A DNA stretch of 64,000 nt. Source: a virus. The notes beneath the pieces are model-generated. The model was not told the DNA's origin and ran no database searches. It saw nothing but the letters and a program-made list of their open reading frames with translations. The position numbers and the translations under genes are program-made. The stretch is from positions 1 through 64,000 of the IMG/VR virus record IMGVR_UViG_3300013137_000010. One strand, 5' to 3'. Below are positions 7,051 to 61,910 of this stretch, piece after piece (position 1 is the first letter of the stretch; every line of letters starts with the position of its first letter).

Positions 7051-7051
7051 A

Positions 7052-7368
7052 ATAGTTATAAAATTAATTGATATGTATGGTAAAGAAGGTGATTTGGTTT
7101 ATGATTCATTTATGGGTATTGGAACAACAGCTATAGGAGCAATACTAAGCAATGGTAAAATGCATTCTGATAGATCCCTACGCAAATGCTTTCAATGACG
7201 GTCCGGGCGATTAGCCGGGATTGCCCTTGCTTACCATCTGGGCCTCGGACTGTCCATCCGGTACCTATTATTATGTAATCAAAGCCGAAGTTTTATAGGA
7301 AGTGAAATAAGTATTAAGCAATGTGAATTAGCTGAACATAAAATAAAAACAAAAAATTCTAATCTATA
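7052..7368 (+). pseudogene. Truncated N4/N6 DNA methyltransferase C-terminus interrupted by a GC-rich insert
   Basis: KLIDMYGKEGDLVYDSFMGIGTTAIGAILSN ... RSFIGSEISIKQCELA is SAM-binding motif I; no start or N-terminal half; ~130-nt insert between the two parts. Confidence 0.75.
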
Positions 7369-7946: not shown

Positions 7947-8407
7947 AAATTATATTTATTTGCAGAAAGTGACATTTCTACATCGTTAATAGAAATTACA
8001 TTTTCAATATCTGATTCTTTTATCCAGACCGCCCTTTCATCTGACATTATTGGTAAATTATCTTTTATACCTATCACTCTTTTAGCATGATAAAGTGGTC
8101 CTCCATTCGACCTGCCTATAAAGGCAGTTCCAGATGGATGTTTCATAAAAGATCCAGGTGTAAAAAATTCAAAAATTCTATAAATATTACCATTACAAAT
8201 GATGTAATCGCCTTTTTTATATTTATATATTAAATTTTCAAATATTTTGAATTTTGTTATCATAAATCTTAGATCTTTTTCGTCGAGATTATCAGCGCTT
8301 CTTACTAATCTAATGAATTTTTCTAATCCGTTGCCTGGAACTCCAGCATGACTTATTAAGTTAACAAAATCATCAGCTGAATTTTCAAATGTTTTAATGT
8401 ATTTCAT
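7943..8407 (-). CDS. Hypothetical protein (two leader motifs, ANKYNL C-terminus)
   Basis: MKYIKTFE start, internal MITKFKIFE, ends ANKYNL. Confidence 0.75.
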   Translation of the reverse strand: MKYIKTFENSADDFVNLISHAGVPGNGLEKFIRLVRSADNLDEKDLRFMITKFKIFENLIYKYKKGDYIICNGNIYRIFEFFTPGSFMKHPSGTAFIGRSNGGPLYHAKRVIGIKDNLPIMSDERAVWIKESDIENVISINDVEMSLSANKYNL

Positions 8408-23484: not shown

Positions 23485-23886
23485 TTAGTAGTCTCTTATT
23501 ATCTGAATAGCATCGAACAAAGAAATATTTGATAAAAGATTTTCGTAAAGTTTTTGATTATCTTTAAAATCCTCAAAAAAGAACAAGAGATTAAAATTTA
23601 TTTTTCCTATTAAATTTTCTTTTATTTGAAAAATATCATCAATATCTAAAGTATTTATTTTATTTAAATTGGGTATGTAATATACATCCTTATTCTTTCT
23701 AATAGTTTGTGTTATTTTAGTATAAATTATGAGATTAAAATATTCTCTCCATTCAGAAACATCTTCTAAACCATGATCATCTAACTGTTGTTTTATATCA
23801 ATAATGGTTTTGCTTCTTATTCTATTGATTTTTATGTACTTATCTAATTTTTTCCTATTTTTAACGAATACTATGTAGAAATCCAT
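23485..23886 (-). CDS. Hypothetical protein
   Basis: 133-aa ORF with an upstream TATATA motif. Confidence 0.7.
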   Translation of the reverse strand: MDFYIVFVKNRKKLDKYIKINRIRSKTIIDIKQQLDDHGLEDVSEWREYFNLIIYTKITQTIRKNKDVYYIPNLNKINTLDIDDIFQIKENLIGKINFNLLFFFEDFKDNQKLYENLLSNISLFDAIQIIRDY

Positions 23887-24089
23887 ATATTAAAAGATTA
23901 TATTTGAAATTATATATATTTGAAATTAAGTTTCCTACTAATAATAAAAACTTTTTATTTTTTATTTTCTAAATAATAAGCATTAGTTTGAAATATATGA
24001 AAATATAGATTATATATTTAAAACTTTTTGTTATCTTTTATTTATAATACATTATAGATAAAAGATTGTGCAAAAAATAATTAATTAGT

Positions 24090-25343
24090 ATGGCTAAAAT
24101 TCAAAAAACTTCTCAAAAAAAGTCTAATGAATTTAATTTTTCTAATATATCAAATCTAATTGATAATATTTCTAAAAAAGATATTATTTCAATAGAAGAT
24201 TTTGATAAAGAAAAAACTTTCATTTCAACCGGAATCCACGTATTGGACGCATTATTATCAAAAAGTATATTAAAAGGTGGAATTCCAAATAATAAAATTA
24301 CAATTATTGCTGGTCCAAAACAGACTGGTAAATCATTTATTTCATTGAATATAGCGAGAAATGCTCAAAAAATGGGATATAATATTGTTTGGATTGATAC
24401 AGAATATTCAATTGAAAAAACGGATTTTGATATGTACGGTATTGATACATCAAATCCTGATAAATTCATGCTAATCAGAACTAATATTGTAGAGAAAATT
24501 AAAATGTTTATGATGTCATTTCTGGATGCACTTCAAAAATTAAAAGATACAGGTGTTGATGTTTCAAAAACAATTTTCTTTATTGATTCTATTGGTATGT
24601 TATCTTCTGAAAAAGAAAAAGAAGATACGCTTAAATTAAATGTTAAGCAAGATATGACTCGTGCTAAACAGATTAAATCTCTTGTTAGACTTATTACAAA
24701 TGATTTAGGATATCTAAATATTCCTTTAGTAGCAACCAATCACGTTTACTTAACCCAAGATATGTTTCCACAAACTATTATGTCTGGTGGTGAAGGTTTA
24801 TATTATGCAGCTAGTGTAATTTTATTATTAAGTGATGCAAAATTGAAAACTGGAGAAGAAGATGAAATGGATCTCGGAAGATCAGGTTCAATTATTACAG
24901 CAAAATCAGCAAAGAATAGACTAGCAAAACCTAAGAAGGTTAAATTTGAAATTGATTACAGCAAAGGTATTAATCCTTATAAAGGTTTAGATCTTTTCTG
25001 TACACCAGAAAATTTCGATAAAGTAGGTATAGCTCAGGTGAAAAAAGTTATAGATAAGGATACTGGTGAAATAACCTATCAACCATCTAATAGATGGTTT
25101 GTAAAACATTTAGATACAACACTTGCTGAGAAACAACTTTTTAATAGAAAGGTGTTTAATTCTGATGTATTAAAATCTATGGAGCCAATTATTTATGAAT
25201 ATTTTAAATATCCCTCTTATGATGAATGCTTACGCGAATTGGAAGATATTGATATGAGGTTGAATGAAATAGAAGATAAAGATTCAGATATGTTGTCTTC
25301 TGATGAATTTAATCTTAGTTCTGACGATAAACTTTTTGATTAG
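24090..25343 (+). CDS. uvsX: RecA/UvsX recombinase
   Basis: ISTGIHVLDALLS, GPKQTGKS, IDTE, FIDSIGML, TNHVY and SGGEGLYYAAS. Confidence 0.92.
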   Translation: MAKIQKTSQKKSNEFNFSNISNLIDNISKKDIISIEDFDKEKTFISTGIHVLDALLSKSILKGGIPNNKITIIAGPKQTGKSFISLNIARNAQKMGYNIVWIDTEYSIEKTDFDMYGIDTSNPDKFMLIRTNIVEKIKMFMMSFLDALQKLKDTGVDVSKTIFFIDSIGMLSSEKEKEDTLKLNVKQDMTRAKQIKSLVRLITNDLGYLNIPLVATNHVYLTQDMFPQTIMSGGEGLYYAASVILLLSDAKLKTGEEDEMDLGRSGSIITAKSAKNRLAKPKKVKFEIDYSKGINPYKGLDLFCTPENFDKVGIAQVKKVIDKDTGEITYQPSNRWFVKHLDTTLAEKQLFNRKVFNSDVLKSMEPIIYEYFKYPSYDECLRELEDIDMRLNEIEDKDSDMLSSDEFNLSSDDKLFD

Positions 25344-25386
25344 TTTATTGTAACTTTTGTAAAAATATTTTATACAATAATTTCAT

Positions 25387-26109
25387 ATGGCAGAAGCAAT
25401 GAATACAAATATGGAAAAGCACTACTTTATCCATATATTAGATAATCCAGAGCAGTTTTCTAAGGTTGAACCATTTTTCTTTAGAAATTCTGATATACAG
25501 TTTATATACACAGTTATTAGAGATGAGTATATCAAAAGCGAAAGCCATATAATACCCAGTCCACAGCAAATTTATTCAATGGTTAAACTTGCTGATCAAG
25601 ATAATAAAATTAATGATAAAGTTATTAAGTTACTTCTTCAGTCAGATAATGCAGATATTAGCCAAGAATGGCTATCACCTAGATTTAAAGCGTGGAAAAT
25701 CAAAAATCAATTAAAAGGCGATGCGTTAAAGATGATCGATATGATTCGTGGAATAGATGAGATTGATTATGATGATGTTACAGAAATTGCACAAAAAACC
25801 AAAACTATGTTTAATAATGTGCTTTTAGTTGATGATGATGATCAAGATTTGGGTGAAGATTTTGATGATCCTGAATCACATAAACAACAAATAAGTAAAA
25901 ATAGTATTCCAACTGGTTGGTCTAGTATAGATTCTATATTAGGTGGTGGTTGGAGTAAATCAACATTAAATGTGATAATGGGAGAAACTAATGTTGGTAA
26001 GTGCTCAAAATCAGATACTCCTATAAGAATTAAAAGCAAAAAAACAGGTGAAATAAAGGAAATTACTATCGGTGATTTTTTTAATTTAATGAAAAATAAA
26101 AAATCCTAA
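25387..26109 (+). CDS. gp41: gp41/DnaB-like replicative helicase, N-terminal part plus 35-aa N-intein
   Basis: IPTGWSSIDSILGGG...GETNVGK Walker A is followed directly by intein block A, CSKSDTPIRI (Cys codon at 26002). Confidence 0.9.
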   Translation: MAEAMNTNMEKHYFIHILDNPEQFSKVEPFFFRNSDIQFIYTVIRDEYIKSESHIIPSPQQIYSMVKLADQDNKINDKVIKLLLQSDNADISQEWLSPRFKAWKIKNQLKGDALKMIDMIRGIDEIDYDDVTEIAQKTKTMFNNVLLVDDDDQDLGEDFDDPESHKQQISKNSIPTGWSSIDSILGGGWSKSTLNVIMGETNVGKCSKSDTPIRIKSKKTGEIKEITIGDFFNLMKNKKS

Positions 26110-26151
26110 ATTGGTCTCTCTTATTTTATATATAGAAATAAAAATATAGAT

Positions 26152-27270
26152 ATGAAATGTAAATTATGTGATAAAAAATTTGATTCTATTGTTGGTTTGT
26201 CTGTTCATTTATCTAAAGAACATAAAGAAGTATCTAAGAAAGATTATTATGATAAATATCTTAAAAAGGAAAACGAAGGTAAATGTTATTTTTGTGGAAA
26301 TGATGCAATATTTAAAGATATATCTAATGGATATCACAGAATATGTAAATCTAAAGAATGTTTAGGAAAAACAAGAGCAACTGGAACTCCAGAATTTTTA
26401 ATGTATAAATATGGATTATCTAAAAAAGATGCCTTACTATTAACAATTCAAAACGCAAAAGAACGAGGTGAAAAAATAAAAAAATCATTGGATCAAAGTT
26501 TTAGTAGAAATAAAAATTTTTTTAAGGAAAAATCTCATCAATGTATTGAATTTTGGTTAAAAAGAGGATATACAGAAGAGGAGGCAAAGAAAAAAGTCGA
26601 AGATATTTTTAATGATATACATCAAAAAACTTGGAATAAAAGAAGGAATAATCCAGAATTATATCAAGATATAAATACAACTCAAATAGGATATTGGACT
26701 AAAAAAGGTCTTTCCGAAGATGATGCAAAAGAAAAAATAAAGGAAAGACAAAGAACTTTTACATTAAAAGGATGTATTGATAAATATGGTGAGGAAGAAG
26801 GATTAAAAATTTTTAATAATAGGCAGGATAAATGGAGTGCTAAGGTTGAAGATTTATATAAAAATGGAAAATTTACAAGATTTACTAAAGAACCATATTC
26901 TAAAAATGAAATAGAATTATTTGATTACTTATCAAATAATTTAGATATAAAAGATAAAGTTCATTATGGTGATGATCAATTTTTCAGATATTTTTCAGAT
27001 TTAGGCAGAACTTTTTCTTACGATTTTGTTTTTGGTAAAAAAATAATTGAATTCAATGGAGATTATTGGCATTGTAATCCTAATTATTATAATTCAAATT
27101 ATTTTCATAAGTATCTTCAAATGTTTGCTTATGAAATTTGGGATAAAGATAAGTTAAGGATAAATTCTATTAAAAAAGTTGGATTTGATGTATTAATAAT
27201 ATGGGAAGACGATTTTAATAGAAAAAAACAACAAATTTTACAGCAATGTATAGATTTTTTGAAAAATTAA
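26152..27270 (+). CDS. Free-standing Vsr/EDxHD-like homing endonuclease between the split-intein halves
   Basis: N-terminal C2H2-like zinc motif; C-terminal YDF...IIEFNGDYWH...WDKD...LIIWE. Confidence 0.8.
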   Translation: MKCKLCDKKFDSIVGLSVHLSKEHKEVSKKDYYDKYLKKENEGKCYFCGNDAIFKDISNGYHRICKSKECLGKTRATGTPEFLMYKYGLSKKDALLLTIQNAKERGEKIKKSLDQSFSRNKNFFKEKSHQCIEFWLKRGYTEEEAKKKVEDIFNDIHQKTWNKRRNNPELYQDINTTQIGYWTKKGLSEDDAKEKIKERQRTFTLKGCIDKYGEEEGLKIFNNRQDKWSAKVEDLYKNGKFTRFTKEPYSKNEIELFDYLSNNLDIKDKVHYGDDQFFRYFSDLGRTFSYDFVFGKKIIEFNGDYWHCNPNYYNSNYFHKYLQMFAYEIWDKDKLRINSIKKVGFDVLIIWEDDFNRKKQQILQQCIDFLKN

Positions 27271-27279
27271 ATTAATAAA

Positions 27280-28356
27280 ATGATATTTGATAGAAAGTTT
27301 ATAGATACAATAGAATTAGATGAATGGGAAGTTGAGACTGATACTGGCTGGTCTGATATTAAAGCTATTGGTAAAACAATAGAGTATGATGAATGGTTGT
27401 TAAAAACCGATAAATTAGAACTAGTTTGTGCTGACACACATATAGTTTTTGATGAATATTTTAATGAAGTTTTCATTAAAGATTTAAAAATTGGTGATAG
27501 AATAATAACTAAAAATGGAATAGAATCAGTTCAAATATGTTATAATACTAACATAAAGTCTAATATGTATGATTTACAATTAGACGATATAAATCATAGA
27601 TTTTATACTAATGATATATTAAGTCATAATAGTATGTGGTTGCATAATATTGCAACTAATGCTGCAAATGCGGGTGCTAATGTTTTAGTAATAACATTAG
27701 AAATGGCAACAAGAAAGGTTATGAAAAGATTGGGTTCAATGCGTCTTAAGATTAATTCAGATGAATATGATGAAAAATCTAAAGACGCAGTTTTTATGAA
27801 GCAAAGATTAAATAATCTTAAATCTCAGTCTAGTGTTGGAAATTTATTTGATTCTCAACCTGGTAAAATTTTTGTTAAGAAATACAATACTAGTGATTGT
27901 ACTGTTACTGATATAGATAATTATGTTAAAAAATTTGAGGAAGTTAAAAGGATTAAAGTAGGAATGATTATTGTAGATTATATAAACATTATGGCAATTG
28001 AAAAAGGCTTTGATATTACTAATATGCTTTATTTAAAAGGAAAACATTTAGCAGAAGGTTTAAGAAAAATTGCAGATAAATATGAATGTGCAGTAGTAAC
28101 TGCAACACAAACAGACAAAGCAGTTTGGGGTGCATCCGATATTAAACTTGGTGACATACCTGAAAGTAAAGCTATTGCTGATACAGCTGACTCTGTGTGG
28201 GGTATTATTAGAAATCCAGAAATGAAAAAGAATAACATATATAGATTAAAAATTTTAAAACTTAGAGATGGTGAACATCACGAAGAGCAAGTTAGATTTG
28301 ATTTTAATACTAAATTTTTAACTATGGAAAATGATCAATTAGTTGGAACTAAATAA
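27280..28356 (+). CDS. gp41: 117-aa C-intein plus gp41/DnaB-like helicase C-terminal part
   Basis: CADTH (block B), MYDL (block F) and ILSHN|S (block G, ends 27630), then ITLEM, IVDYINIM, TATQ and ESKAIADTAD helicase motifs. Confidence 0.92.
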   Translation: MIFDRKFIDTIELDEWEVETDTGWSDIKAIGKTIEYDEWLLKTDKLELVCADTHIVFDEYFNEVFIKDLKIGDRIITKNGIESVQICYNTNIKSNMYDLQLDDINHRFYTNDILSHNSMWLHNIATNAANAGANVLVITLEMATRKVMKRLGSMRLKINSDEYDEKSKDAVFMKQRLNNLKSQSSVGNLFDSQPGKIFVKKYNTSDCTVTDIDNYVKKFEEVKRIKVGMIIVDYINIMAIEKGFDITNMLYLKGKHLAEGLRKIADKYECAVVTATQTDKAVWGASDIKLGDIPESKAIADTADSVWGIIRNPEMKKNNIYRLKILKLRDGEHHEEQVRFDFNTKFLTMENDQLVGTK

Positions 28357-28382
28357 TATCTAAAAATTAACTTATTTAATTA

Positions 28383-29090
28383 ATGAAGAAAAAGGATGTA
28401 GATGAAATAGAAGATAATTTAGATAATGATTTGGAAGATGAGTTAAATGATATTGATGAAGTTATTATAGAAGATGAATATGTAGATGAATCTTCAGATG
28501 AATCTTCAGATGAAATAGATATAGCTGAGATAGATGAAGAAATAGAAGGTGAGGATGAAGAAGATGAAGATGATGATGATGATATCATGTTTAAGTTTAA
28601 TACCAACAATCATAAACTTGAAGGTAAACATTCTCTTGCAAGAGATACTATTTTTAAAGGAAAATTAGAGGATAATGCAGAAGAATCAGAACATCTAATA
28701 CATCAGGATGACTTTAATATAAGTGACGGACTACCTATAGAGATGGGAACCACTTATGAATTTGAAAGTAAATATCACGAAGAATATGTAAATAGATTGA
28801 ATCTTCAAAAGGATGTTTATGATTTACTAAATGATAAGACTGATTTAGATTTTTCTTCTAATAGAAGAAAACCGAACAGGCAGGCATTTAATGACTATTA
28901 TAAAATGCTGCTAGATCATATCGGTAAAGATTATACCAAATCAGAAATCTTTGTGGAACTTTCATATTATTTTACAGATAATATTTTTAATATGTTTAAA
29001 CTACTTGATAAAGAATGTGCAACTCAAATAATAGTAGAGTTAAAGCAGAGTGGTTATTTAACTAATTTGAATAATATAAATTTTATATAG
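28383..29090 (+). CDS. Hypothetical protein with a very acidic N-terminus
   Basis: About 70-aa D/E tract followed by a globular region. Confidence 0.75.
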   Translation: MKKKDVDEIEDNLDNDLEDELNDIDEVIIEDEYVDESSDESSDEIDIAEIDEEIEGEDEEDEDDDDDIMFKFNTNNHKLEGKHSLARDTIFKGKLEDNAEESEHLIHQDDFNISDGLPIEMGTTYEFESKYHEEYVNRLNLQKDVYDLLNDKTDLDFSSNRRKPNRQAFNDYYKMLLDHIGKDYTKSEIFVELSYYFTDNIFNMFKLLDKECATQIIVELKQSGYLTNLNNINFI

Positions 29091-29110
29091 AAAAAATAAT
29101 TAAAAACGGT

Positions 29111-31657
29111 ATGAATTATAAAAGAGACGATGTATATGAAGCAACGTTGAAATATTTTAAGGGTGATACTTTGGCAGCTGATGTTTGGGTAAATAAGTAT
29201 GCTCTTAAGGAAACAGTGAATGGTGAAACTGTTTATCACGAATTAACACCAGATGATATGCATAGAAGAATTGCAAAAGAACTGAATAGAATTGAAAATA
29301 AATATGAAAATCCGCTTTCAGAAGATTTGATTTTTGATCTAATAAAAAACTTTGAATATATCATTCCTCAGGGTTCACCAATGTCAGGTATTGGTAATGA
29401 TAAGCAAGTTGTATCTCTATCAAATTGTTTTGTTATTGGTAATCATCCATCTGATTCGTATGGTTCTATTATGCAAATTGATGAAGAACAAATACAATTA
29501 ATGAAACGTAGAGGTGGTGTTGGACATGATCTTTCACATATTAGACCTGCAGGTACACCAGTTAAAAATTCAGCATTAACATCAACTGGCTTAGTTCCTT
29601 TTATGACAAGATACTCTAACTCTACCAATGAAGTTGCACAAGGCGGACGAAGAGGTGCACTAATGCTAACTTGTTCTATTAAACATCCGGATTCAGAACA
29701 TTTTATTGATGCAAAATTGGAACAAGGTAAAGTTACTGGTGCAAATATTTCAGTTAAAGTAACTGATGAATTTATGAAAGCTGCAATGAGCACCAAAGTA
29801 TTTACTCAGCAATTTCCAATTGATTCTGATAATCCTTTGTTTAAAAAAGATATCGATGCACAAAAATTATGGAAAAAGATTATTCACAATGCTTGGAAAT
29901 CCGCTGAACCAGGCGTGCTATTTTGGGATACTTTGATTAATGAATCTGTACCTGATTGTTATCGGGAAGAAGGTTTTGAAACTGTATCAACAAATCCTTG
30001 TGGTGAATTGCCATTATGTCCATATGATTCTTGTAGATTATTAGCTATTAATTTATATAGTTATGTAGTTAACCCATTTACAGATAAATCTTATTTTGAT
30101 TGGAAAAAATTTAAACAGCATGTGATATATGCTGAAAGATTTATGGATGATATAGTTGATTTGGAGTCTGAAAAAATTCAAATGATATTATCTAAAATTG
30201 AGTCTGATCCAGAGCCAGAAAATATTAAACGAGTAGAGAGAGAAACATGGAGTAAAATAATGGAAATGACATTAAAAGGTCGTAGAACTGGTTTAGGTGT
30301 AACATCAGAGGGTGATATGTTAGCTGCACTAGGTTTAAGATATGGAACACCTGAAGCAACTGATTTTTCAACTGAAGTTCATAAAAATTTAGCTATTAGT
30401 GCATATAAATCATCAGCAATTATGGCTAAAGAAAGAGGAACATTTTCAGTTTATAATTATGAAAAAGAACTAAATAATCCATTTATTCAAAGATTAAAAG
30501 AAGCAGATCCTGAATTAGACAGAATGCTTAAAGAATGTGGTAGAAGAAATATTGCATTGCTAACTATTGCGCCAACAGGCTCAGTTTCTATTCTAACTCA
30601 GACAACTTCTGGTATTGAGCCGGCATATCTTGTTTCATATAAAAGAAGAAGAAAAATCAATCCAACCGATAAATCAGGTAGAATTGATTTTATAGATGCT
30701 GAAGGTGTGAAGTGGGAAGAATATAATGTCTTTCATCATAAATTTGAGACCTGGTTGAAAGTTAATGGTTATAATGTGAATGAAGTTAAAAATATGAAGG
30801 ATTCTGAGTTAAAACCAGTCATTGAAAAATCACCATATTATAAAGCTACATCAAACGATGTTGATTGGGTTGAAAAAGTTAGAATGCAAGGTATGATTCA
30901 AAAATTCGTTGATCATTCAATTTCAGTAACTGTTAATTTACCAAATAATGTAACCGAAGAAATTGTATCTAAAGTTTATGAAACTGGTTGGTCGAGTGGA
31001 TGTAAAGGTTTAACAATTTATCGTGACGGATCTCGCCAAGGTGTTATTATGTCAAATGAAGGTACTACTCAGAATGTTGTTAAAGAGCCTGAAGAAAATA
31101 ATGCAAAACCAAGACCTAAGCGTCTTGAATGTGAGGTTGTTAGATTTACTAATAATAAAGAAAAGTGGGTTGGTTTCTTAGGATTAATGACTGATGATAA
31201 AGGTGAGAAATATCCATACGAACTTTTTACAGGTTTATTGGATGAATTTTACGTTCCACCAAGTGTAGAAAAAGGCGAAATTGTTAAATTTAAAGAGGGT
31301 GGTGAGAAAAGCAGATATGACTTTGTTTATAAGGATAAAGATGGTTATCATGTAACAATGGAAGGCTTAAATAGAGCTTTTGATAGAGAATTTTGGAATG
31401 TTAGTAAATTTTTATCTGCATTTTTGAGACATAGAATACATTTACCTAGTGTTATTAATCTTATAGATAGTCTCCAATTAAGTTCAGATGTTGCTGCGTT
31501 TGGAACCTGGAAAAGTGGGGTAAAAAGAATTATTAAGAAGTATATTAACTCAACAGTTGCCGGTGAATCGTGTCCTGAGTGTGGTTCTACAGATTTAAAA
31601 TATGAAGCTGGCTGCAAAACTTGCAACAACTGTGGATGGAGTAAATGTTCTGATTAA
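29111..31657 (+). CDS. nrdJ: Class II (adenosylcobalamin-dependent) ribonucleotide reductase
   Basis: SNCFV, RRGGVG, QGGRRGALM, TNPCGELPL, TIAPTG, YRDGSR and a C-terminal CPECG...CNNCGWSKC. Confidence 0.92.
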   Translation: MNYKRDDVYEATLKYFKGDTLAADVWVNKYALKETVNGETVYHELTPDDMHRRIAKELNRIENKYENPLSEDLIFDLIKNFEYIIPQGSPMSGIGNDKQVVSLSNCFVIGNHPSDSYGSIMQIDEEQIQLMKRRGGVGHDLSHIRPAGTPVKNSALTSTGLVPFMTRYSNSTNEVAQGGRRGALMLTCSIKHPDSEHFIDAKLEQGKVTGANISVKVTDEFMKAAMSTKVFTQQFPIDSDNPLFKKDIDAQKLWKKIIHNAWKSAEPGVLFWDTLINESVPDCYREEGFETVSTNPCGELPLCPYDSCRLLAINLYSYVVNPFTDKSYFDWKKFKQHVIYAERFMDDIVDLESEKIQMILSKIESDPEPENIKRVERETWSKIMEMTLKGRRTGLGVTSEGDMLAALGLRYGTPEATDFSTEVHKNLAISAYKSSAIMAKERGTFSVYNYEKELNNPFIQRLKEADPELDRMLKECGRRNIALLTIAPTGSVSILTQTTSGIEPAYLVSYKRRRKINPTDKSGRIDFIDAEGVKWEEYNVFHHKFETWLKVNGYNVNEVKNMKDSELKPVIEKSPYYKATSNDVDWVEKVRMQGMIQKFVDHSISVTVNLPNNVTEEIVSKVYETGWSSGCKGLTIYRDGSRQGVIMSNEGTTQNVVKEPEENNAKPRPKRLECEVVRFTNNKEKWVGFLGLMTDDKGEKYPYELFTGLLDEFYVPPSVEKGEIVKFKEGGEKSRYDFVYKDKDGYHVTMEGLNRAFDREFWNVSKFLSAFLRHRIHLPSVINLIDSLQLSSDVAAFGTWKSGVKRIIKKYINSTVAGESCPECGSTDLKYEAGCKTCNNCGWSKCSD

Positions 31658-58895: not shown

Positions 58896-58970
58896 CTAGG
58901 TGCGATCCATGTGGTGTGGTTACCCGGCTTGGAACCGGGGTTATTGGAGGTTCGACTCCTCTCACTTAGA
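58896..58970 (+). tRNA. trnP: tRNA-Pro(UGG), irregular D-arm
   Basis: CTAGGTG/CACTTAG acceptor, CCCGG-CTTGGAA-CCGGG, GGAGG-TTCGACT-CCTCT. Confidence 0.8.
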
Positions 58971-58975
58971 CAACT

Positions 58976-59052
58976 GGTCCTGTAATGGCGGAGTCTTCTA
59001 AACTCTATGTGCATAATGGATGAAAATGAGAGTTCGAATCTCTCCTGGATCA
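58976..59052 (+). tRNA. Non-canonical D-arm-less tRNA-Arg(UCU)-like RNA
   Basis: Acceptor GGTCCTG/CTGGATC, 7-nt linker, GGAGT-CTTCTAA-ACTCT, 21-nt segment, canonical T-arm. Confidence 0.7.
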
Positions 59053-59058
59053 CAAATT

Positions 59059-59138
59059 GGCCCTGTAATGGCGGAGTTTCCTAAACTCTATGTGCATAAT
59101 TGGAATGAAAAATGAGAGTTCGAATCTCTTCTGGGTCA
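59059..59138 (+). tRNA. Non-canonical D-arm-less tRNA-Arg(CCU)-like RNA
   Basis: Near-duplicate of the previous RNA with loop TTCCTAA. Confidence 0.7.
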
Positions 59139-59152
59139 CAAAAATAAAGATT

Positions 59153-59374
59153 ATGAAAACAAAAAAAGTAGCAGTAAAAAAAGTAGAATCAAAAGTTTTA
59201 GCAGTAGAAATATTCTGTGAAAACTTAGAGAAAAATGTGACTGTGGATATATCTAAGTTATATTTTTTGGGTAGTGAAAGTGAGTGTGAATTGTGTGGTT
59301 CACACGGTTCTGTGAATGTTTCAGTAAATTGTGAGTGTGGTAAAAATCACAGTATTGAATTGAGTAGTTGGTAA
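59153..59374 (+). CDS. Small Cys/His-rich (zinc-binding) protein inside the tRNA array
   Basis: MKTKKVAVKK...CELCGSH...CECGKNH; start set at ATG 59153. Confidence 0.65.
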   Translation: MKTKKVAVKKVESKVLAVEIFCENLEKNVTVDISKLYFLGSESECELCGSHGSVNVSVNCECGKNHSIELSSW

Positions 59375-59406
59375 GAGTAGTTGTTCTTTGACATGTTGGA
59401 AAATTA

Positions 59407-59479
59407 GGGGGCGCATGTACCAAGGCTGGCGAGAGACATTTGCAATGTTTCTGGGAGATTTCGATTATATTCGTCTCCA
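59407..59479 (+). tRNA. trnA: tRNA-Ala(UGC), atypical D-region and weak T-stem
   Basis: GGGGGCG/CGTCTCC with G3:U70, AGACA-TTTGCAA-TGTTT, discriminator A. Confidence 0.6.
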
Positions 59480-59558
59480 CTATTTTATTATAGGGTAAAT
59501 ATTATGATACTGAAATAAAAATATTTATAGATTTAAATGAATTAAAAGAAATTTATAT

Positions 59559-59632
59559 GGGTTGTGTAGTGTAACCTGCTTAGCACGAAACACTTGCAAT
59601 GTTTAAGAGGAGTTGAAATCTCACACGATCCA
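59559..59632 (+). tRNA. trnA: tRNA-Ala(UGC), 8-bp acceptor stem
   Basis: GGGTTGTG/CACGATCC with G3:U70, AAACA-CTTGCAA-TGTTT, T-stem G-GAG/CTC-A. Confidence 0.8.
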
Positions 59633-59676
59633 CATATCCGGGATGATCCTCTGTTGTATCGCAGAGCCCGGTCCAT

Positions 59677-59749
59677 GCGATTGTAGTTCAGTTGGTAGAA
59701 TACTTCCTTGGTAAGGAAGAGGTCGTGAGATCGTAACTCACCTTTCGCT
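59677..59749 (+). tRNA. trnT: tRNA-Thr(GGU)
   Basis: CTTCC-TTGGTAA-GGAAG; tandem U:U in the acceptor; T-loop ATCGTAA. Confidence 0.85.
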
Positions 59750-59757
59750 CTAAGATA

Positions 59758-59896
59758 AAGAATACATACAGCAACAAAAAAATGCATGGTTAGCAAAAAA
59801 AGTATTCTGTTCTTAAAAAATTATCTAAAGATTACATACAGCAATCTTAAAAAAGGACCAAACTTGTAATTTGAAATTCTGAAAAAATGTAATCTG
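59758..59896 (+). ncRNA. Two ATACAGCAA-containing stem-loop elements with Thr anticodon-like hairpins
   Basis: AGAATAC..GTATTCT and AGATTACA..TGTAATCT closing stems; inner loops ATGGTTA and CTTGTAA. Confidence 0.5.
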
Positions 59897-59905
59897 TGAT
59901 AAAAT

Positions 59906-59978
59906 GCGAATGTATATCAGCGGTAGATAGTCTGGTTGCCAACCAGAAGGTTCGTGGGTTCGAATCCCATCATTCGCT
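59906..59978 (+). tRNA. trnG: tRNA-Gly(GCC)
   Basis: Canonical cloverleaf, TCTGG-TTGCCAA-CCAGA. Confidence 0.92.
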
Positions 59979-59987
59979 CAGTAAATT

Positions 59988-60061
59988 GCGAAATGTAGCT
60001 TAACGGTAAAGTATCTGGCTTCCAACCAGAGGAAGGGGTTCGATTCCCACATTTCGCTCCA
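59988..60061 (+). tRNA. trnG: tRNA-Gly(UCC), 8-bp acceptor stem
   Basis: GCGAAATG/CATTTCGC, loop CTTCCAA, T-stem G-GGG/CCC-A, encoded CCA. Confidence 0.88.
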
Positions 60062-60062
60062 T

Positions 60063-60140
60063 GCGAGCATAACTCAGTAGGTTCAGAGTACTTGTCTTAC
60101 AAACAAGAAGTCGATGGTTCGACTCCATCTGTTCGCACCA
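60063..60140 (+). tRNA. trnV: tRNA-Val(UAC)
   Basis: Canonical cloverleaf, CTTGT-CTTACAA-ACAAG, encoded CCA. Confidence 0.93.
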
Positions 60141-60142
60141 AT

Positions 60143-60226
60143 GCTGATGTAGTATAGCGGCTATTACACTGGCTTTGTAACCCAGCGTCTGAGAAGACAT
60201 CGTGAGTTCGAGTCTCACCATCAGCT
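60143..60226 (+). tRNA. trnT: tRNA-Thr(UGU) with a long variable arm
   Basis: GCTGATG/CATCAGC, loop TTTGTAA, variable arm GTCT-GAGA-AGAC. Confidence 0.82.
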
Positions 60227-60236
60227 CAAAATGAAT

Positions 60237-60403
60237 GGGAAATCAACGATGAAAAGGCGGATCGTACAGGCAACGAAAGTAATCCTGATTGGATAACGAA
60301 TTGCGGATGCACCTATAGCGACCTTATTGAGGTGGTGAAAAAATGAGCAAGGGAAGCGCGTTACTAGTTACCAACGTCGCGGGTTCGAATCCCGCATTTT
60401 CCA
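60237..60403 (+). ncRNA. 167-nt tRNA-like RNA with an Ala-type acceptor and an expanded body
   Basis: GGGAAAT/ATTTTCC-A (G3:U70), perfect T-arm GCGGG-TTCGAAT-CCCGC, several internal helices, no anticodon arm. Confidence 0.7.
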
Positions 60404-60447
60404 CAAAAAAATTAAAACTTTTTTTTTCATATTATAAAAGTAAATAT

Positions 60448-60520
60448 CGAGGATATGGTGTAACCTGGTAACACGGGGCATTTGGGATGCTCAGAAGCCG
60501 TTCAAATCGGATATCTTCGA
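60448..60520 (+). tRNA. trnP: tRNA-Pro(UGG), 8-bp acceptor stem
   Basis: CGAGGATA/TATCTTCG, GGGCA-TTTGGGA-TGCTC, T-stem G-CCG/CGG-A. Confidence 0.85.
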
Positions 60521-60546
60521 CAACTCTGATAATCAGGTATTTATAA

Positions 60547-60633
60547 GCCGAATTCCCATAGTGGTTGATTGGGCGTGACTTGTAATCACGAGGGTTTTTA
60601 TACCCCGCACTGGTTCGAATCCAGTATTCGGCT
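60547..60633 (+). tRNA. trnT: tRNA-Thr(UGU) with a long variable arm
   Basis: GCCGAAT/ATTCGGC, CGTGA-CTTGTAA-TCACG, variable arm GGGT-TTTTAT-ACCC. Confidence 0.85.
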
Positions 60634-60652
60634 CTCATACCTAATAAAAAAT

Positions 60653-60684
60653 AAAAATTCATTTCTCTCTCGAAATGAATTTTT
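60653..60684 (+). terminator. Intrinsic terminator
   Basis: aaaaattcatttc-tctctc-gaaatgaattttt. Confidence 0.7.
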
Positions 60685-60719
60685 GACTTAAAAATATTTA
60701 TATATACAAATAAAAAAGT

Positions 60720-61391
60720 ATGAAGTGGTCTGAAGAAGAAGAAAATGATTTAATTTCTTTATTAGAAAATGGATTTACATATTTGGATATATCTATTAAA
60801 TTAAATCGAACTAAAAAAAGTGTTAAAGAAAAAGCTAATAAGTGTGGACTTAATTTTAAGTCTTTCCTTAAAAAGGAGGCAAATAAATGCTTAGAGTGTA
60901 ATAAAGATATTGAAAAAAATAAAAAATTCTGTTCATCATCATGTTCTGCAAAACATAACAATAAAAAAAGAATTCACAAAGAATCAAATTGTATAGTTTG
61001 TGGAAACAAAACCAAAAAGTTTGGATACAAATTTTGTTCTAATAAATGTCAAATAGAACATCAATATGCTGTATATATTCAGAAGTGGAAAAATGATGAA
61101 GTTGATGGTGTGTCTGGTGAATATGGAACATCAAGATATATAAAAAAATATTTATTTGAAAAGTTTAATGGAAAATGTACGAGATGTGGATGGGGTGAAA
61201 AAAATCAATATACAGGTAATATTCCATTAGAGATAGAGCATAAAGATGGCAATAGTAAAAATAATAAAGAAGAAAATTTAACTCTATTATGTCCTAATTG
61301 TCATTCTTTAACAGAAACATATAAGGGTGCAAATAGAGGAAATGGTAGATATAATAGGCGAGAAAGATATAAAGATAAAAAATCATACTAA
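60720..61391 (+). CDS. HNH homing endonuclease inside the tRNA array
   Basis: Zinc motifs, CTRCGW and LEIEHKDGNSKNNKEENLTLLCPNCHS. Confidence 0.9.
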   Translation: MKWSEEEENDLISLLENGFTYLDISIKLNRTKKSVKEKANKCGLNFKSFLKKEANKCLECNKDIEKNKKFCSSSCSAKHNNKKRIHKESNCIVCGNKTKKFGYKFCSNKCQIEHQYAVYIQKWKNDEVDGVSGEYGTSRYIKKYLFEKFNGKCTRCGWGEKNQYTGNIPLEIEHKDGNSKNNKEENLTLLCPNCHSLTETYKGANRGNGRYNRRERYKDKKSY

Positions 61392-61672
61392 GGTCCCGTA
61401 GCTCAGCTGGATAGAGCAACAGCCTTCAAAAGGAGCTTCATAGATGAAAATGTGTGTCGAATGGTGTAAATTCAAAGAATGCTTAACAGGTAATGCTGAT
61501 GTTAACTTTGAGCGAAGTTCTTGTATAAGAAAACGTGCAGAGACTATAATCACCCACCTAAGATAGAAATATTAAGGTGAAGGCATAGTCCAGACCACAA
61601 ACAATAATTGGCAGTGAAAACTGTAGTGGTAGGCTAAGCTGTGGGTCATAGGTTTGAATCCTATCGGGATCA
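61392..61672 (+). tRNA. trnR: tRNA-Arg(UCU) interrupted by a group I intron (exons 61392-61426 and 61634-61672)
   Basis: The spliced product GGTCCCG..ACAGC-CTT|CTAA-GCTGT..CGGGATC-A is a normal cloverleaf with A20. Confidence 0.88.
61427..61633 (+). mobile_element. 207-nt group I intron (IC3-like), no ORF
   Basis: P AAATTCAAAGAA, Q AACTTTGAGC, R GTGCAGAGACTA, S AAGGCATAGTCC; U:G pair in P1 at the 5' splice site; terminal G. Confidence 0.88.
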
Positions 61673-61698
61673 CATATATTTTATATACATTTTATAAT

Positions 61699-61771
61699 GC
61701 CTTCTTAACTCAATTGGTAGAGTAGTTCTTTCGTAAAGAACAAGTTATCGGTTCGAATCCGATAGTTGGCT
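61699..61771 (+). tRNA. trnT: tRNA-Thr(CGU)
   Basis: GTTCT-TTCGTAA-AGAAC; tandem U:U in the acceptor. Confidence 0.88.
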
Positions 61772-61833
61772 CTTAAAATTCCTTAATTTTTTTATTTCAG
61801 AGTTTTTCCTTATCTTTGTAGTATTAAAACAAT

Positions 61834-61910
61834 GCCCTTGTATTGGCGGAGTTTCCTAAACTTTGTGTGCATAATGGATTAAAATGTGGGTTCAAGTCCC
61901 ATCAAGGGTA
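61834..61910 (+). tRNA. Third D-arm-less tRNA-Arg(CCU)-like RNA
   Basis: GCCCTTG/CAAGGGT, GGAGT-TTCCTAA-ACTTT, GTGCATAATGGATTAAAAT, T-arm GTGGG-TTCAAGT-CCCAT; own TATCTTTG element at 61811. Confidence 0.7.

What the first reader, a model, noticed from the sequence alone, without database searches (positions are those of the whole stretch)
58976..59138. D-arm-less tRNA-Arg(AGR)-like RNAs with a D-loop-like segment moved 3' of the anticodon arm
Seen: three copies (58976-59052 UCU, 59059-59138 CCU, 61834-61910 CCU) have a 7-bp acceptor stem and a normal T-arm. Only 7 nt (TA(A/T)TGGC) replace the D-arm, and a conserved 21-23-nt segment (TGTGCATAAT(T)GGA..AAAAT) follows the anticodon stem. Copy 3 has different acceptor and T-stem sequences that still pair, which points to selection on structure rather than decay. 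Established: G18-G19 contact the T-loop and A20 is the main ArgRS identity element. Inference: the AATGGA in the extra segment may supply G18-G19-A20 from the other side, giving a topologically rewired tRNA. It could evade tRNA-targeting nucleases or act as a decoy. Standard tRNA finders would probably miss these or call them pseudogenes.
Basis: partly seen in the sequence, partly recalled or inferred. Interest (0 to 1): 0.88.

Follow-up and report, generated by a model that had tools for sequence, protein, structure and literature searches.

The report
Rewired non-cloverleaf phage arginine tRNAs
Three genes in this huge lake-water phage are very probably working arginine tRNAs whose D-arm is assembled from strands lying before and after the anticodon arm, a non-cloverleaf layout shared by hundreds of phages, missed by gene finders, and found in no paper I could search.

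Summary
The three copies exist as described. Two details need correction: copies 1 and 2 have a U6-U67 mismatch, and the 3' segments are 21, 24 and 21 nt. They are not decayed tRNAs. A covariance model built from them finds 230 distinct relatives in 157 phage loci, carrying Arg anticodons (148), Ile (77) and CAU (5). All four helices covary.

The molecules are not truly D-arm-less. Two or three bases of the 5' linker pair with the bases just 5' of the conserved T-A-R-Y-G-G motif. This pairing held in 96 of 98 and 72 of 90 matches in a blind, alignment-free census. Position "15" covaries with the last linker base, "48" (A:U 59, G:C 28, other 2 of 89), as in the canonical Levitt pair. The base after GG is A in 42 of 43 Arg members, but in only 2 of 75 Ile members.

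So the D-stem 5' strand and the D-loop have moved behind the anticodon arm, and the core can still fold into an L-shape.

Function is inferred, not shown. AGA and AGG make up 86% of this phage's Arg codons. A Pseudomonas phage carries such a gene as its only tRNA.

ARAGORN, Rfam at threshold and GenBank annotation miss these genes. This scan has found the same class before on other DNA.

The parts
58976..59052 (+). Rewired tRNA-Arg(UCU), copy 1. Acceptor 5' strand 58976-58982. U8 A9 58983-58984. D-stem 3'-strand equivalent ATGGC 58985-58989. Anticodon stem 58990-58994 with 59002-59006. Loop 58995-59001, anticodon 58997-58999. Spacer AT 59007-59008. D-stem 5'-strand equivalent GTGCAT 59009-59014. 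D-loop-like AATGGA 59015-59020. Linker TGAAAAT 59021-59027, whose last T is the '48' equivalent. T-arm 59028-59044. Acceptor 3' strand 59045-59051. Discriminator A 59052.
   Evidence: Sequence. R1 105 bits and R2 92.5 bits. RF00005 29.5 bits, with the D-arm deleted and an 18-nt insert. Not called by ARAGORN.
59059..59138 (+). Rewired tRNA-Arg(CCU), copy 2. Anticodon 59080-59082. 5' linker TAATGGC 59066-59072. GTGCAT 59092-59097. D-loop-like AATTGGA 59098-59104. Linker 59105-59113. T-arm 59114-59130. Discriminator A 59138.
   Evidence: Sequence. R1 96 bits and R2 88.3 bits. RF00005 only 11.9 bits. Not called by ARAGORN.
61834..61910 (+). Rewired tRNA-Arg(CCU), copy 3. Anticodon 61855-61857. 5' linker TATTGGC 61841-61847. 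GTGCAT 61867-61872. D-loop-like AATGGA 61873-61878. Linker 61879-61885. T-arm 61886-61902. Discriminator A 61910. The acceptor and T stems differ from copies 1 and 2 but still pair.
   Evidence: Sequence. R1 96.6 bits and R2 82.3 bits. RF00005 27.9 bits, below the gathering score of 29. Not called by ARAGORN.
61392..61673 (+). Context: a canonical cloverleaf tRNA-Arg(UCU) interrupted in the anticodon loop by a group I-like intron. It is the only canonical Arg gene seen in the 83-kb record.
   Evidence: Reading of the sequence. RF00028 41.1 bits, E 3.9e-9, at 61416-61613, below the gathering score of 50. ARAGORN -i misreads it as tRNA-SeC(tca) with an intron.
58896..61772 (+). Context: the surrounding tRNA array. 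It holds 10 ARAGORN-called tRNAs (Pro, Ala, Thr, Gly, Val) on the same strand as the three rewired genes.

Best explanation
The three genes encode arginine tRNAs (one UCU, two CCU) of a phage-borne class whose core is wired in a different strand order from the cloverleaf.

The order along the chain is:
1. acceptor 5' strand;
2. U8 and A9;
3. a short strand equivalent to D-stem positions 22-25(26);
4. the anticodon arm;
5. a 1-3 nt spacer (44/45-like);
6. a strand equivalent to D-stem positions 10-13;
7. a D-loop equivalent (A14 R15 Y16 (Y17) G18 G19 A20);
8. a 4-9 nt purine-rich linker ending in Y48;
9. the T-arm, the acceptor 3' strand and the discriminator.

The D-stem therefore forms by long-range pairing around the anticodon arm. 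D-stem plus anticodon stem becomes one continuous irregular hairpin. This closes the gap in the strand opposite 22-31 that exists in the canonical D/anticodon coaxial stack. The D-loop still reaches the T-loop, and R15 still pairs with Y48, so the RNA can adopt an ordinary L-shape.

Shown by comparative sequence data: the helices, the long-range D-stem pairs, the 15:48 covariation and the isotype-specific base after GG.

Inferred:
- The RNA is cut out of the array transcript and given CCA by a CCA-adding enzyme.
- It is charged by a bacterial-type ArgRS through C35, U36 and the A20 equivalent.
- It is used on the host ribosome to read AGA/AGG, the dominant Arg codons of this 27%-GC phage.

Why phages keep this wiring is unknown.
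For: 1. Family and structure.
- R2 finds a full-length match in 26 of 26 related records. There is a score gap: family members score 54.5 bits or more, and the next hits score 35.3 or less.
- Further matches: 128, 115 and 37.
- 230 distinct sequences from 157 loci were tabulated.
- Acceptor, anticodon and T stems pair in 94-99% of cells, and most pairs show changes on both sides.

2. Long-range D-stem.
- On 113 distinct sequences the two core pairs are CG 55, UA 49, GC 4, UG 4, other 1, and GC 57, CG 43, AU 7, GU 2, UA 2, other 2.
- On 89 distinct sequences from a scan that left these positions free, 89 of 89 pair at both positions (CG 82, UG 3, AU 2, UA 2; and GC 43, CG 36, AU 9, UA 1).
- The pair states change 5 and 9 times on the tree.
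- In a blind, alignment-free census of every unique pattern match, both pairs form in 96 of 98 matches (controls 33, 1, 24) and in 72 of 90 (controls 39, 9, 19).

3. Tertiary 15:48 pair.
- A:U 59, G:C 28, other 2 of 89.
- The two columns change 13 and 14 times on the tree. In 6 independent pairs on supported branches, position 48 follows position 15 in 5.9 and goes the other way in 0 (median p 0.031).

4. Identity marks.
- The base after GG is A in 42 of 43 Arg members from sets where no search pattern fixed it. In Ile members it is T 64, G 8, A 2, C 1 of 75.
- The discriminator is A in 77 of 77 Ile members.

5. Decoding demand and non-redundancy.
- AGA 343 plus AGG 41 of 446 Arg codons in the window's 32 ORFs of at least 250 aa.
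- Only 33 of 230 rewired genes have a canonical tRNA with the same anticodon in the fetched locus.
- In Pseudomonas phage vB_PaeM_Ty, ARAGORN finds 0 tRNAs and no tRNA is annotated. The rewired Arg(UCU) gene (65.9 bits, with CCA encoded) was the one candidate R2 scored. AGA plus AGG are 200 of 557 Arg codons in its 28 longer CDSs.
- The Ty record annotates no aminoacyl-tRNA synthetase, so host enzymes would have to charge this tRNA.

6. The anticodon loops are canonical: 7 nt, U33, purine 37.
Against: - No RNA, processing, aminoacylation or ribosome data exist for any member. All functional steps are inferred.
- MFE folding of single sequences does not recover the model. Z-scores are weak (-0.45, -1.13 and -1.51 for the three window copies), and the predicted folds differ between copies.
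- In the window's own subfamily (ATGGC with GTGCAT) the long-range helix needs a bulged G and hardly varies. Its support comes from other subfamilies.
- The outer helix pairs are poorly conserved or change register (46 and 48 of 113 unpaired; 57 and 60 of 89).
- The 22:13-like pair is non-standard in 76 of 230 sequences.
- Copies 1 and 2 carry a U6-U67 mismatch.
- The window also has a canonical (intron-bearing) tRNA-Arg(UCU), so copy 1 is not strictly needed.
- CM-made alignments lean towards the model structure.
- Two of the three productive scans were aimed at Arg or Ile anticodons, so the isotype range is biased.
- The independent-pairs test rests on only 6 pairs.
- A later check of a related claim (a Tyr class), reported in the scan's notes, priced the 'working tRNA' reading at 34/100 because nobody has seen the RNA loaded or read.
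Confidence: 0.68

Rival explanations
1. A non-decoding tRNA mimic. The RNA folds like a tRNA but serves as a decoy or sponge for host tRNA-targeting nucleases, modification enzymes or a defence sensor, or as a regulatory or processing element of the array. It does not deliver arginine to the ribosome.
For: - Copy 1 coexists with a canonical tRNA-Arg(UCU) in the window.
- 33 of 230 family members have a canonical twin with the same anticodon nearby.
- LR756501 has a rewired and a canonical Arg(UCU) about 250 nt apart.
- In one cellular-assembly locus an RtcB-like tRNA ligase flanks such an array, which fits a conflict over tRNA cleavage.
- No expression or charging data exist.
Against: - 197 of 230 members have no same-anticodon twin in the fetched locus.
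- The gene is the sole tRNA-like gene of the PA11-like phage Ty, whose Arg codons are 36% AGR.
- The anticodon varies among synonymous Arg and Ile anticodons on one scaffold, as expected of isoacceptors.
- The identity-linked base after GG and the discriminator track the anticodon class.
- A decoy would not need intact acceptor-stem and T-stem covariation together with a canonical 7-nt loop in every member, although this does not exclude a decoy.
Confidence: 0.14
2. A truly D-arm-less tRNA of the mitochondrial tRNA-Ser(AGY) kind. The 7-nt linker is an unpaired connector, the 3' segment is just a long variable loop, and the molecule adopts a flexible non-L (Y-like) shape.
For: - There is no local D hairpin.
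- RF00005 aligns copy 1 with the D-arm deleted and an insert in the variable region.
- Single-sequence MFE folds do not show the long-range helix.
- The window subfamily's long-range helix is imperfect, with a bulged G.
Against: - The two core long-range pairs covary.
- The 15:48-type pair covaries.
- T-A-R-Y-(N)-G-G is conserved at a fixed place.
- The base after GG is specific to the isotype.
- ARAGORN's mitochondrial mode, which is designed for D-armless tRNAs, does not call them.
Confidence: 0.06
3. A precursor that is cut and re-ligated into an ordinary cloverleaf order, as permuted or split tRNA genes are, so that the mature tRNA is canonical.
For: - Large phages encode RNA ligases.
- Permuted tRNA genes exist in a red alga (PMC3978253 and PMC3728597, seen as search listings and abstracts).
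Against: - The acceptor ends are already in the normal order. Restoring the cloverleaf order would need two internal cuts and two ligations.
- The 50-kb PA11-like carrier has no annotated RNA ligase among its 74 CDSs.
- I saw no bulge-helix-bulge-like junction. That is a reading of the sequences, not a formal search.
Confidence: 0.03
4. Decayed tRNA pseudogenes or chance tRNA-like sequence.
For: Low or sub-threshold scores with standard tools.
Against: - 230 distinct full-length relatives with compensatory changes in every helix.
- The Felix O1-type member is conserved in 263 GenBank phage records.
Confidence: 0.01

Closest known systems
Canonical class I elongator tRNA-Arg and tRNA-Ile of bacteria and phages (Rfam RF00005). 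Examples: this window's intron-bearing tRNA-Arg(UCU) at 61392-61673, and LR756501's tRNA-Arg(UCU) at L003:3329-3402.
   Same: - 7-bp acceptor stem.
- U8.
- 5-bp anticodon stem and 7-nt loop with U33.
- GTTCRA T-loop.
- G18 G19, an R15:Y48 pair and a D-stem of a few pairs.
- Overall length of 73-82 nt in most members.
- Isotype-typical marks: an A20-like base for Arg, A73 for Ile.
   Different: - The strand order differs. The 10-13 strand and the D-loop lie 3' of the anticodon arm instead of 5' of the 22-25 strand.
- There is no D hairpin and no short variable loop.
- The secondary structure is not a cloverleaf.
- RF00005 scores fall at or below its threshold (29.5, 27.9 and 11.9 bits).
Metazoan mitochondrial D-armless tRNA-Ser(AGY/UCU) (reviewed in PMC7609411, passages seen; PMC11551756, passages seen)
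   Same: - No D hairpin between the acceptor and anticodon stems.
- A short connector instead.
- Functional despite not being a cloverleaf.
   Different: - The mitochondrial forms lose the D-stem and D-loop and become flexible or Y-shaped, with co-evolved organelle factors.
- Here both D-stem strands, the D-loop motif and the 15:48 pair are kept, and the setting is bacterial cytosolic translation.
- PMC11551756 states that natural arm-less tRNAs exist only in mitochondria.
Circularly permuted and split tRNA genes (Cyanidioschyzon merolae; PMC3978253 and PMC3728597, seen as listings and abstracts only)
   Same: The order of tRNA segments in the gene departs from the canonical order.
   Different: - Those genes are permuted at the termini and are processed back into a canonical cloverleaf.
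- Here the termini are normal and an internal module is transposed, so the mature RNA should keep the new topology.
Synthetic 'mini HisT' D-arm-less suppressor used by evolved E. coli (PMC11551756; abstract and passages seen)
   Same: It shows that bacterial aaRS, EF-Tu and ribosomes can accept a non-cloverleaf tRNA.
   Different: It is man-made, lacks the D-arm altogether, and is modelled as Y-shaped. The phage class is natural and keeps the D-arm elements in a new order.
   Same: An L-shaped tRNA mimic reached through non-canonical backbone connectivity.
   Different: Those lack a decoding anticodon arm, are not adaptors for sense codons, and have different builds. No comparison was run here.

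Membership tests
Canonical tRNA (Rfam RF00005 cloverleaf) | Score at or above the family's gathering threshold (29 bits) | tested here: inconclusive
   Copy 1 scores 29.5 bits, but only in a 201-nt search, and is not reported in the whole-window gathering scan. Copy 3 scores 27.9 and copy 2 scores 11.9.
Canonical tRNA (Rfam RF00005 cloverleaf) | D-arm hairpin (stem 10-13 with 22-25 closed by the D-loop) between position 9 and position 26 | tested here: not met
   Only 7 nt lie between the acceptor and anticodon stems. The RF00005 alignment deletes the D-arm.
Canonical tRNA (Rfam RF00005 cloverleaf) | Acceptor stem, 5-bp anticodon stem with a 7-nt loop and U33, and a T-arm with GTTCRA | tested here: met
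   Sequence. Covariation in all three helices.
Canonical tRNA (L-shape core) | Tertiary marks: U8 with A14, an R15:Y48 Levitt pair, and G18 G19 to contact the T-loop | tested here: met
   The T8, A14 and GG equivalents are present in all three copies. 15:48 is A:U 59, G:C 28, other 2 of 89, with 6 of 6 independent pairs changing in the same direction. The contacts themselves were not observed.
   92.5, 88.3 and 82.3 bits for the three copies. Ordinary tRNAs in the same 26 records score 35.3 bits or less. The copies are among the sequences the model was trained on, so this is partly by construction. Independent members score 43-92 bits.
Rewired-core phage tRNA class | Long-range pairing of 5'-linker bases with the bases just 5' of the T-A-R-Y-G-G motif | tested here: met
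   Window copies: T:A and G:C, then (after a bulged G on the 3' strand) G-U and C:G. Family-wide covariation and the blind census support it.
Mitochondrial-type D-armless tRNA (tRNA-Ser AGY kind) | Loss of the D-stem and D-loop elements; detected by finders tuned to organelles | tested here: not met
   The D-stem strands and the D-loop motif are retained in a new order. ARAGORN -mt does not call them. The context is a phage, not an organelle.
Circularly permuted / split tRNA genes | The 3' half lies upstream of the 5' half, with processing junctions at the acceptor ends | tested here: not met
   The acceptor 5' and 3' strands lie in normal order at the gene's ends. Processing itself cannot be tested with these tools.
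Functional aminoacylated elongator tRNA-Arg | Processed to a CCA end, charged by ArgRS and used on ribosomes | not testable with these tools
   No RNA run holds the stretch. Only indirect support exists: codon demand, the A20-like base, and its status as the sole tRNA gene in phage Ty.

The most novel reading that the evidence does not exclude
The rewired core is an adaptation, not an accident. It keeps every surface that ArgRS or IleRS, EF-Tu, the CCA-adding enzyme and the ribosome need. It also re-routes the backbone of the D-arm and variable region, so that host tRNA-targeting defences (anticodon or elbow nucleases, tRNA-depleting systems) or tRNA decay fail to recognise it. Phages would thus carry a defence-resistant supply of Arg and Ile tRNAs. 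As a by-product, nature would already have produced an alternative tRNA topology that works on bacterial ribosomes and could seed orthogonal tRNA/synthetase pairs.
Probability: 0.25. Interest if true: 0.95.

Novelty: new variant of a known kind. Interest (0 to 1): 0.86.

Why it matters
Textbooks and current papers hold that every tRNA used in bacterial translation is a cloverleaf. PMC11551756 says so in its abstract and states that natural arm-less tRNAs exist only in mitochondria.

A natural, widespread class of tRNAs that reaches the L-shape through a different strand order would overturn that rule. It would show that tRNA secondary-structure topology is not frozen.

It would also expose a systematic blind spot. 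ARAGORN overlaps only 8 of 230 members. None of the 25 Felix O1-type GenBank records listed, and none of the 10 PA11-like records, annotates the gene as a tRNA. One carrier phage is annotated as having no tRNA at all. Phage tRNA counts and codon-usage analyses are therefore biased.

The class offers a ready-made scaffold for tRNA engineering.

It is directly testable. Cultured carriers infect E. coli K-12, Salmonella, Klebsiella and Pseudomonas aeruginosa.

Tried and rejected
**Single-sequence folding.** MFE structures differ between copies, and z-scores are weak. I rejected this as a guide to the structure and used comparative analysis instead.

**RNAalifold on 4 sequences.** It proposed pairing of positions 6-9 with TGCA of the 3' segment. 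I rejected this because members with a well-paired 6:67 lose that complementarity, and the columns involved never vary in that small set.

**First viral scan.** The pattern was too loose.

**Expression.** The look-up of sequencing runs listed 17 runs, none on record as RNA: 'no RNA holder listed'. The holders of large shares were lake-water metagenomes, and one may be the source sample.

**Neighbouring genes.** Pfam on 9 neighbouring ORFs gave HNH, CHAD, phosphatidylserine decarboxylase and DUF3326. None relates to tRNA. No phage-encoded ArgRS was looked for in the large records.

**E. coli genomes.** The Felix O1-type sequence has no match in the E. coli genome collection at E <= 1e-6.

**Cellular genomes.**
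- One pattern scan of 185,579 species genomes gave 9 hits.
- R2 confirmed 7 of them; L416 and L417 were not matched.
- ARAGORN finds 7 to 35 tRNAs in 6 of those 7 loci, and only 1 in the short contig L415.
- In the two loci examined, some flanking ORFs hit phage protein families. These were an RtcB-like ligase and a nicotinamide phosphoribosyl transferase in L413, and a 'lipoprotein' PHROG in L420.
- Whether these are prophages or binned phage contigs was not settled, so I do not claim the class is phage-only.

**Literature.**
- Six full-text searches found no description of such tRNAs.
- I read passages of PMC7609411 (0 occurrences of 'phage', 'virus' or 'permuted'), PMC9897764 and PMC11551756.
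- Subscription journals are not covered.
- Supplementary files were not requested.

**Earlier notes of this scan.**
- Many agents reported the same class on other DNA.
- One note says part of 'the same claim' fell in a check, without saying which part. I could not retrieve the detail: one search returned nothing, and one search returned a check on a related Tyr class.

**Not possible or not run.** 3D modelling of RNA is not possible with these tools. tRNAscan-SE and R-scape are not installed. I did not use the metagenome scan, protein searches, structure prediction or complex prediction.
Full report
**Setting.** The window is the first 64 kb of an 83,240-base IMG/VR virus record that CheckV rates 12% complete. 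It is therefore a fragment of a very large phage. GC content is 24-31%. DNA runs that hold it are lake-water metagenomes.

Positions 58.9-61.8 kb hold a same-strand array of 10 ARAGORN-called tRNAs: Pro, Ala, Thr, Gly and Val. Nine of them reach Rfam's tRNA threshold. The nearest named records are unannotated 'uncultured phage' genomes of 735 kb and 642 kb, LR756501/3 and LR756502. I recall, from no call, that these come from the huge-phage surveys.

**The observation.** Each reads, in order:
- acceptor strand;
- TA;
- five more linker bases (ATGGC or TTGGC);
- a 5-bp anticodon stem with a 7-nt loop (CUUCUAA or UUCCUAA);
- a 21- or 24-nt segment (two spacer bases, GTGCAT, AAT(T)GGA, then a linker ending AAAAT);
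- a normal T-arm;
- acceptor strand;
- A73.

Copies 1 and 2 have a U6-U67 mismatch. Copy 3 pairs at all seven positions and differs from the others in its acceptor and T stems. No CCA is encoded.

ARAGORN misses all three in standard, intron and mitochondrial modes. RF00005 gives 29.5, 11.9 and 27.9 bits in small-region searches, against a gathering score of 29. It gives nothing in the whole-window gathering scan.

**A family, not decay.**
- A homologue with 84.6% identity sits in LR756501.
- Model R1, built from these four sequences, found the same architecture in LR756502 with an Arg(UCU), an Ile(GAU) and an Ile(UAU) anticodon.
- R1 also found dozens of matches in IMG/VR loci fetched by two DNA patterns.
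- I built R2 from 36 matches.
- In 26 whole records, R2 separates family members (54.5 bits or more) from ordinary tRNAs (35.3 or less).

Two further scans left the helix positions free:
- One, aimed at GAU/UAU anticodons, gave 119 stretches.

R2 confirmed 128, 115 and 37 matches in these loci. Pooling alignments A2, A3 and A4 gives 230 distinct sequences from 157 loci:
- Arg 148: UCU 60, ACG 36, CCU 24, UCG 22, GCG 5, CCG 1.
- Ile 77: GAU 48, UAU 29.
- CAU 5.

The 37 matches were not added to this table. The isotype spectrum is biased by the scan patterns.

**Secondary structure.** Acceptor, anticodon and T stems pair in 94-99% of cells, and nearly every pair changes on both sides. Whole-structure pairing is 93.2% against 60.3% in shuffles (0 of 500 shuffles reach it) and 34-48% when partners are slid. 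One search gives similar figures.

**The D-stem is rebuilt, not lost.** Counting from U8, linker bases 11 and 12 pair with the two bases that precede the conserved T of the T-A-R-Y-(N)-G-G motif.
- On 113 distinct sequences these pairs are CG 55, UA 49, GC 4, UG 4, other 1, and GC 57, CG 43, AU 7, GU 2, UA 2, other 2.
- On the 89 distinct sequences of the Ile-aimed scan, both pairs are standard in 89 of 89.
- The pair states change 5 and 9 times on a tree built without regard to them.

CM alignments lean towards the model, so I also ran a blind census of every unique pattern match, using fixed offsets and no alignment or CM filter.
- Arg-type scan: both pairs form in 96 of 98 matches. Controls gave 33 (parallel), 1 (3' strand slid) and 24 (5' strand slid).
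- Ile-type scan: both pairs form in 72 of 90 matches. This set still contains chance matches. Controls gave 39, 9 and 19.

The next pair outward (linker base 10 with the conserved T) is standard in 154 of 230 sequences. By recall, the canonical 13:22 pair is also often non-Watson-Crick. The pairs nearer the anticodon stem shift register between subfamilies.

In the window's subfamily the helix reads A/U:U (absent in copy 3), U:A, G:C, a bulged G on the 3' strand, G-U and C:G. Two unpaired bases follow before the anticodon stem.

**Tertiary signature.** The base two positions after the conserved T ('15') covaries with the last base before the T-stem ('48'). The counts are A:U 59, G:C 28, other 2 of 89 in the scan that left both free, and A:T 193, G:C 33, other 4 of 230 overall.

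On the tree these columns change 13 and 14 times. Among 6 phylogenetically independent pairs on supported branches, 48 follows 15 in 5.9 on average and never goes the other way (median p 0.031; 13 pairs on all branches). Two clusters at 85% identity or more contain both states.

This behaviour matches the R15:Y48 Levitt pair of canonical tRNAs. That is established knowledge, named here from recall.

**Reading of the topology (inference).**
- Mapped onto standard numbering, the chain runs 1-7, U8, A9, [22-26], anticodon arm 27-43, [44/45], [10-13], [14-20], linker, 48, T-arm, 66-73.
- In the canonical L-shape the D-stem stacks on the anticodon stem. Strand 22-31 is continuous, and the opposite strand is broken between 44/45 and 10.
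- The rewired chain closes that break. It instead opens the 9-to-10 and 21-to-22 links.
- A9, which directly precedes the '22' strand, could take the place of A21 next to the U8:A14 pair.
- The total number of stacked layers is preserved: about 5 plus 5 pairs, against 4+1+5 in the canonical form.
- I could not model this in 3D.

**Identity and use (inference from comparative data).**
- In sets where no pattern fixed it, the base after GG is A in 42 of 43 Arg members. In 75 Ile members it is T 64, G 8, A 2, C 1. All 5 CAU members have T. By recall, A20 is the main D-loop identity element for bacterial ArgRS.
- The discriminator is A in 77 of 77 Ile members and 5 of 5 CAU members. In Arg members it is A 67, U 41, G 39, C 1.
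- Arg, Ile and Met/Ile2 are cases where, by recall, the anticodon dominates identity. That would let one scaffold spread among them. Arg(ACG) and Ile(GAU) members do share near-identical core segments.
- In the window's 32 ORFs of at least 250 aa, AGA (343) and AGG (41) make up 384 of 446 Arg codons. The only other Arg gene seen in the record is a UCU tRNA split by a group I-like intron.
- Across the family, 33 of 230 genes have a canonical tRNA of the same anticodon in the fetched locus (median 10 canonical tRNAs per locus).
- Among loci with at least 15 canonical tRNAs, 12 of 18 with a rewired Ile have no canonical Ile, and 5 of 24 with a rewired Arg have no canonical Arg. Loci are partial, so these figures are upper bounds on non-redundancy.

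**Cultured carriers.**
R2 hits NC_005282 at 25951-26030 with 45.6 bits. The gene is an Arg(UCU) with CTC/GAG as its long-range helix and an encoded CCA.
- The Felix O1 record annotates 22 tRNAs in the region I listed (23500-30500), and this gene is not among them. An 'HNH endonuclease' CDS is drawn over its 3' end.
- BLAST finds this type in 263 GenBank phage records, from phages of Escherichia, Salmonella, Klebsiella and others. In none of the 25 rows listed is it annotated as a tRNA. It has no match in the E. coli genome collection at E <= 1e-6.
- Pseudomonas phage vB_PaeM_Ty (50 kb, 44.8% GC) has a 65.9-bit member with CCC/GGG as its helix and an encoded CCA.
- In Ty, ARAGORN finds no tRNA, the record annotates none and no synthetase, and AGA plus AGG are 200 of 557 Arg codons in 28 CDSs. 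Ten PA11-like records carry this gene, and none annotates it as a tRNA.
- A phage whose single tRNA-like gene reads codons that are frequent in the phage and, by recall, rare in its GC-rich host is the classic signature of a working phage tRNA.

**Distribution.**
- R2 confirmed 7 of those hits. Six lie among 7 to 35 ARAGORN tRNAs; the seventh, on a short contig, has 1.
- Two of those loci were examined, and both had flanking ORFs that hit phage protein families.
- The class is thus strongly phage-linked. I do not claim that it is exclusive to phages.

**What is not shown.**
- No RNA data exist for any member.
- Single-sequence folding does not support any one structure.
- Why the wiring is kept is unknown. 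Evasion of tRNA-targeting defences and a decoy role remain open.
- A later check of a related Tyr-class claim, quoted in the scan's notes, kept the observation but priced 'working tRNA' at 34/100 for lack of direct evidence. I therefore keep the functional claim at about two in three.

**Known or new.**
- Six full-text searches found no description.
- The 2020 review of natural non-canonical tRNAs does not mention phages.
- A 2024 paper states that all known bacterial tRNAs are cloverleaves and that natural arm-less tRNAs occur only in mitochondria.
- This scan has reported the same class repeatedly on other DNA. My reading was formed before those look-ups, as recorded, and agrees with them.

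**Verdict.** The feature is real and belongs to a large conserved class. It is best described as a new topological variant of tRNA. Its structure is well supported by covariation, and its function as an Arg adaptor is probable but unproven.

Noticed in passing
window 61392-61673: A canonical tRNA-Arg(UCU) interrupted in the anticodon loop by an insert of about 200 nt. The insert matches Rfam group I intron RF00028 at 41.1 bits (E 3.9e-9, below the gathering score of 50). ARAGORN -i misreads the gene as tRNA-SeC(tca) with an intron.
   Followed up: partly
window 60720-61391: A 223-aa ORF with an HNH endonuclease domain (Pfam PF01844, 23.7 bits). It ends directly before the intron-bearing tRNA-Arg.
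   Followed up: partly
window 60143-60227 and 60547-60634: Two 'tRNA-Thr(UGU)' calls of 85 and 88 nt with long variable arms. This is unusual for Thr. The anticodon stem of the first needs a C-C mismatch or an oversized loop.
   Followed up: no
window about 59395-59480; L125:1591-1680 (LR756502): A conserved tRNA-like element with a UUGCAAU loop and an odd T-region. It is shared between this phage and the 642-kb phage LR756502, and ARAGORN calls it in neither.
   Followed up: no
window about 60237-60397: A stretch ending in a perfect T-arm (GCGGG TTCGAAT CCCGC) and an acceptor-like 3' strand that can pair with GGGAAAT about 150 nt upstream. It may be another interrupted or oversized tRNA gene.
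   Followed up: no
L129:1251-1415 (LR756502): Two more tRNA-like sequences with good acceptor stems and T-arms but aberrant D regions. One has a CCA (Trp) anticodon loop. ARAGORN misses both. Several neighbouring 'tRNA-Lys' calls are 82-89 nt long with long variable arms.
   Followed up: no
L318:8578-8668, L328:10358-10449, L297:11715-11804, L381:936-1026 and similar: An 88-91-nt subclass of the rewired Ile/Arg tRNAs has an extra hairpin in the linker between the D-loop equivalent and the T-stem. ARAGORN calls genes of about this length (90-91 nt) as long-arm tRNA-Ile in L412 and L414. I did not check that those two calls belong to this subclass.
   Followed up: partly
window 58981/59046 and 59064/59132; family-wide: A U6-U67 mismatch in the acceptor stem recurs. 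The 6:67 pair is non-standard in 14 of 34 distinct sequences and 13 of 113. I have no explanation.
   Followed up: no
NC_005282.1 26003-26395 (L199:2504-2896): The annotated start of a Felix O1 'HNH endonuclease' CDS lies inside the T-arm of the unannotated rewired tRNA-Arg (25951-26030). An in-frame ATG lies just downstream of the tRNA, so the CDS start is probably mis-set.
   Followed up: partly
L413:1093-2457 and 6929-7966: In a Hoeflea MAG contig, a 20-tRNA array containing a rewired Arg gene is flanked by an RtcB-like tRNA ligase (phrog_1075, E 1.8e-84) and a nicotinamide phosphoribosyl transferase (phrog_448). This looks like a phage-type island.
   Followed up: partly
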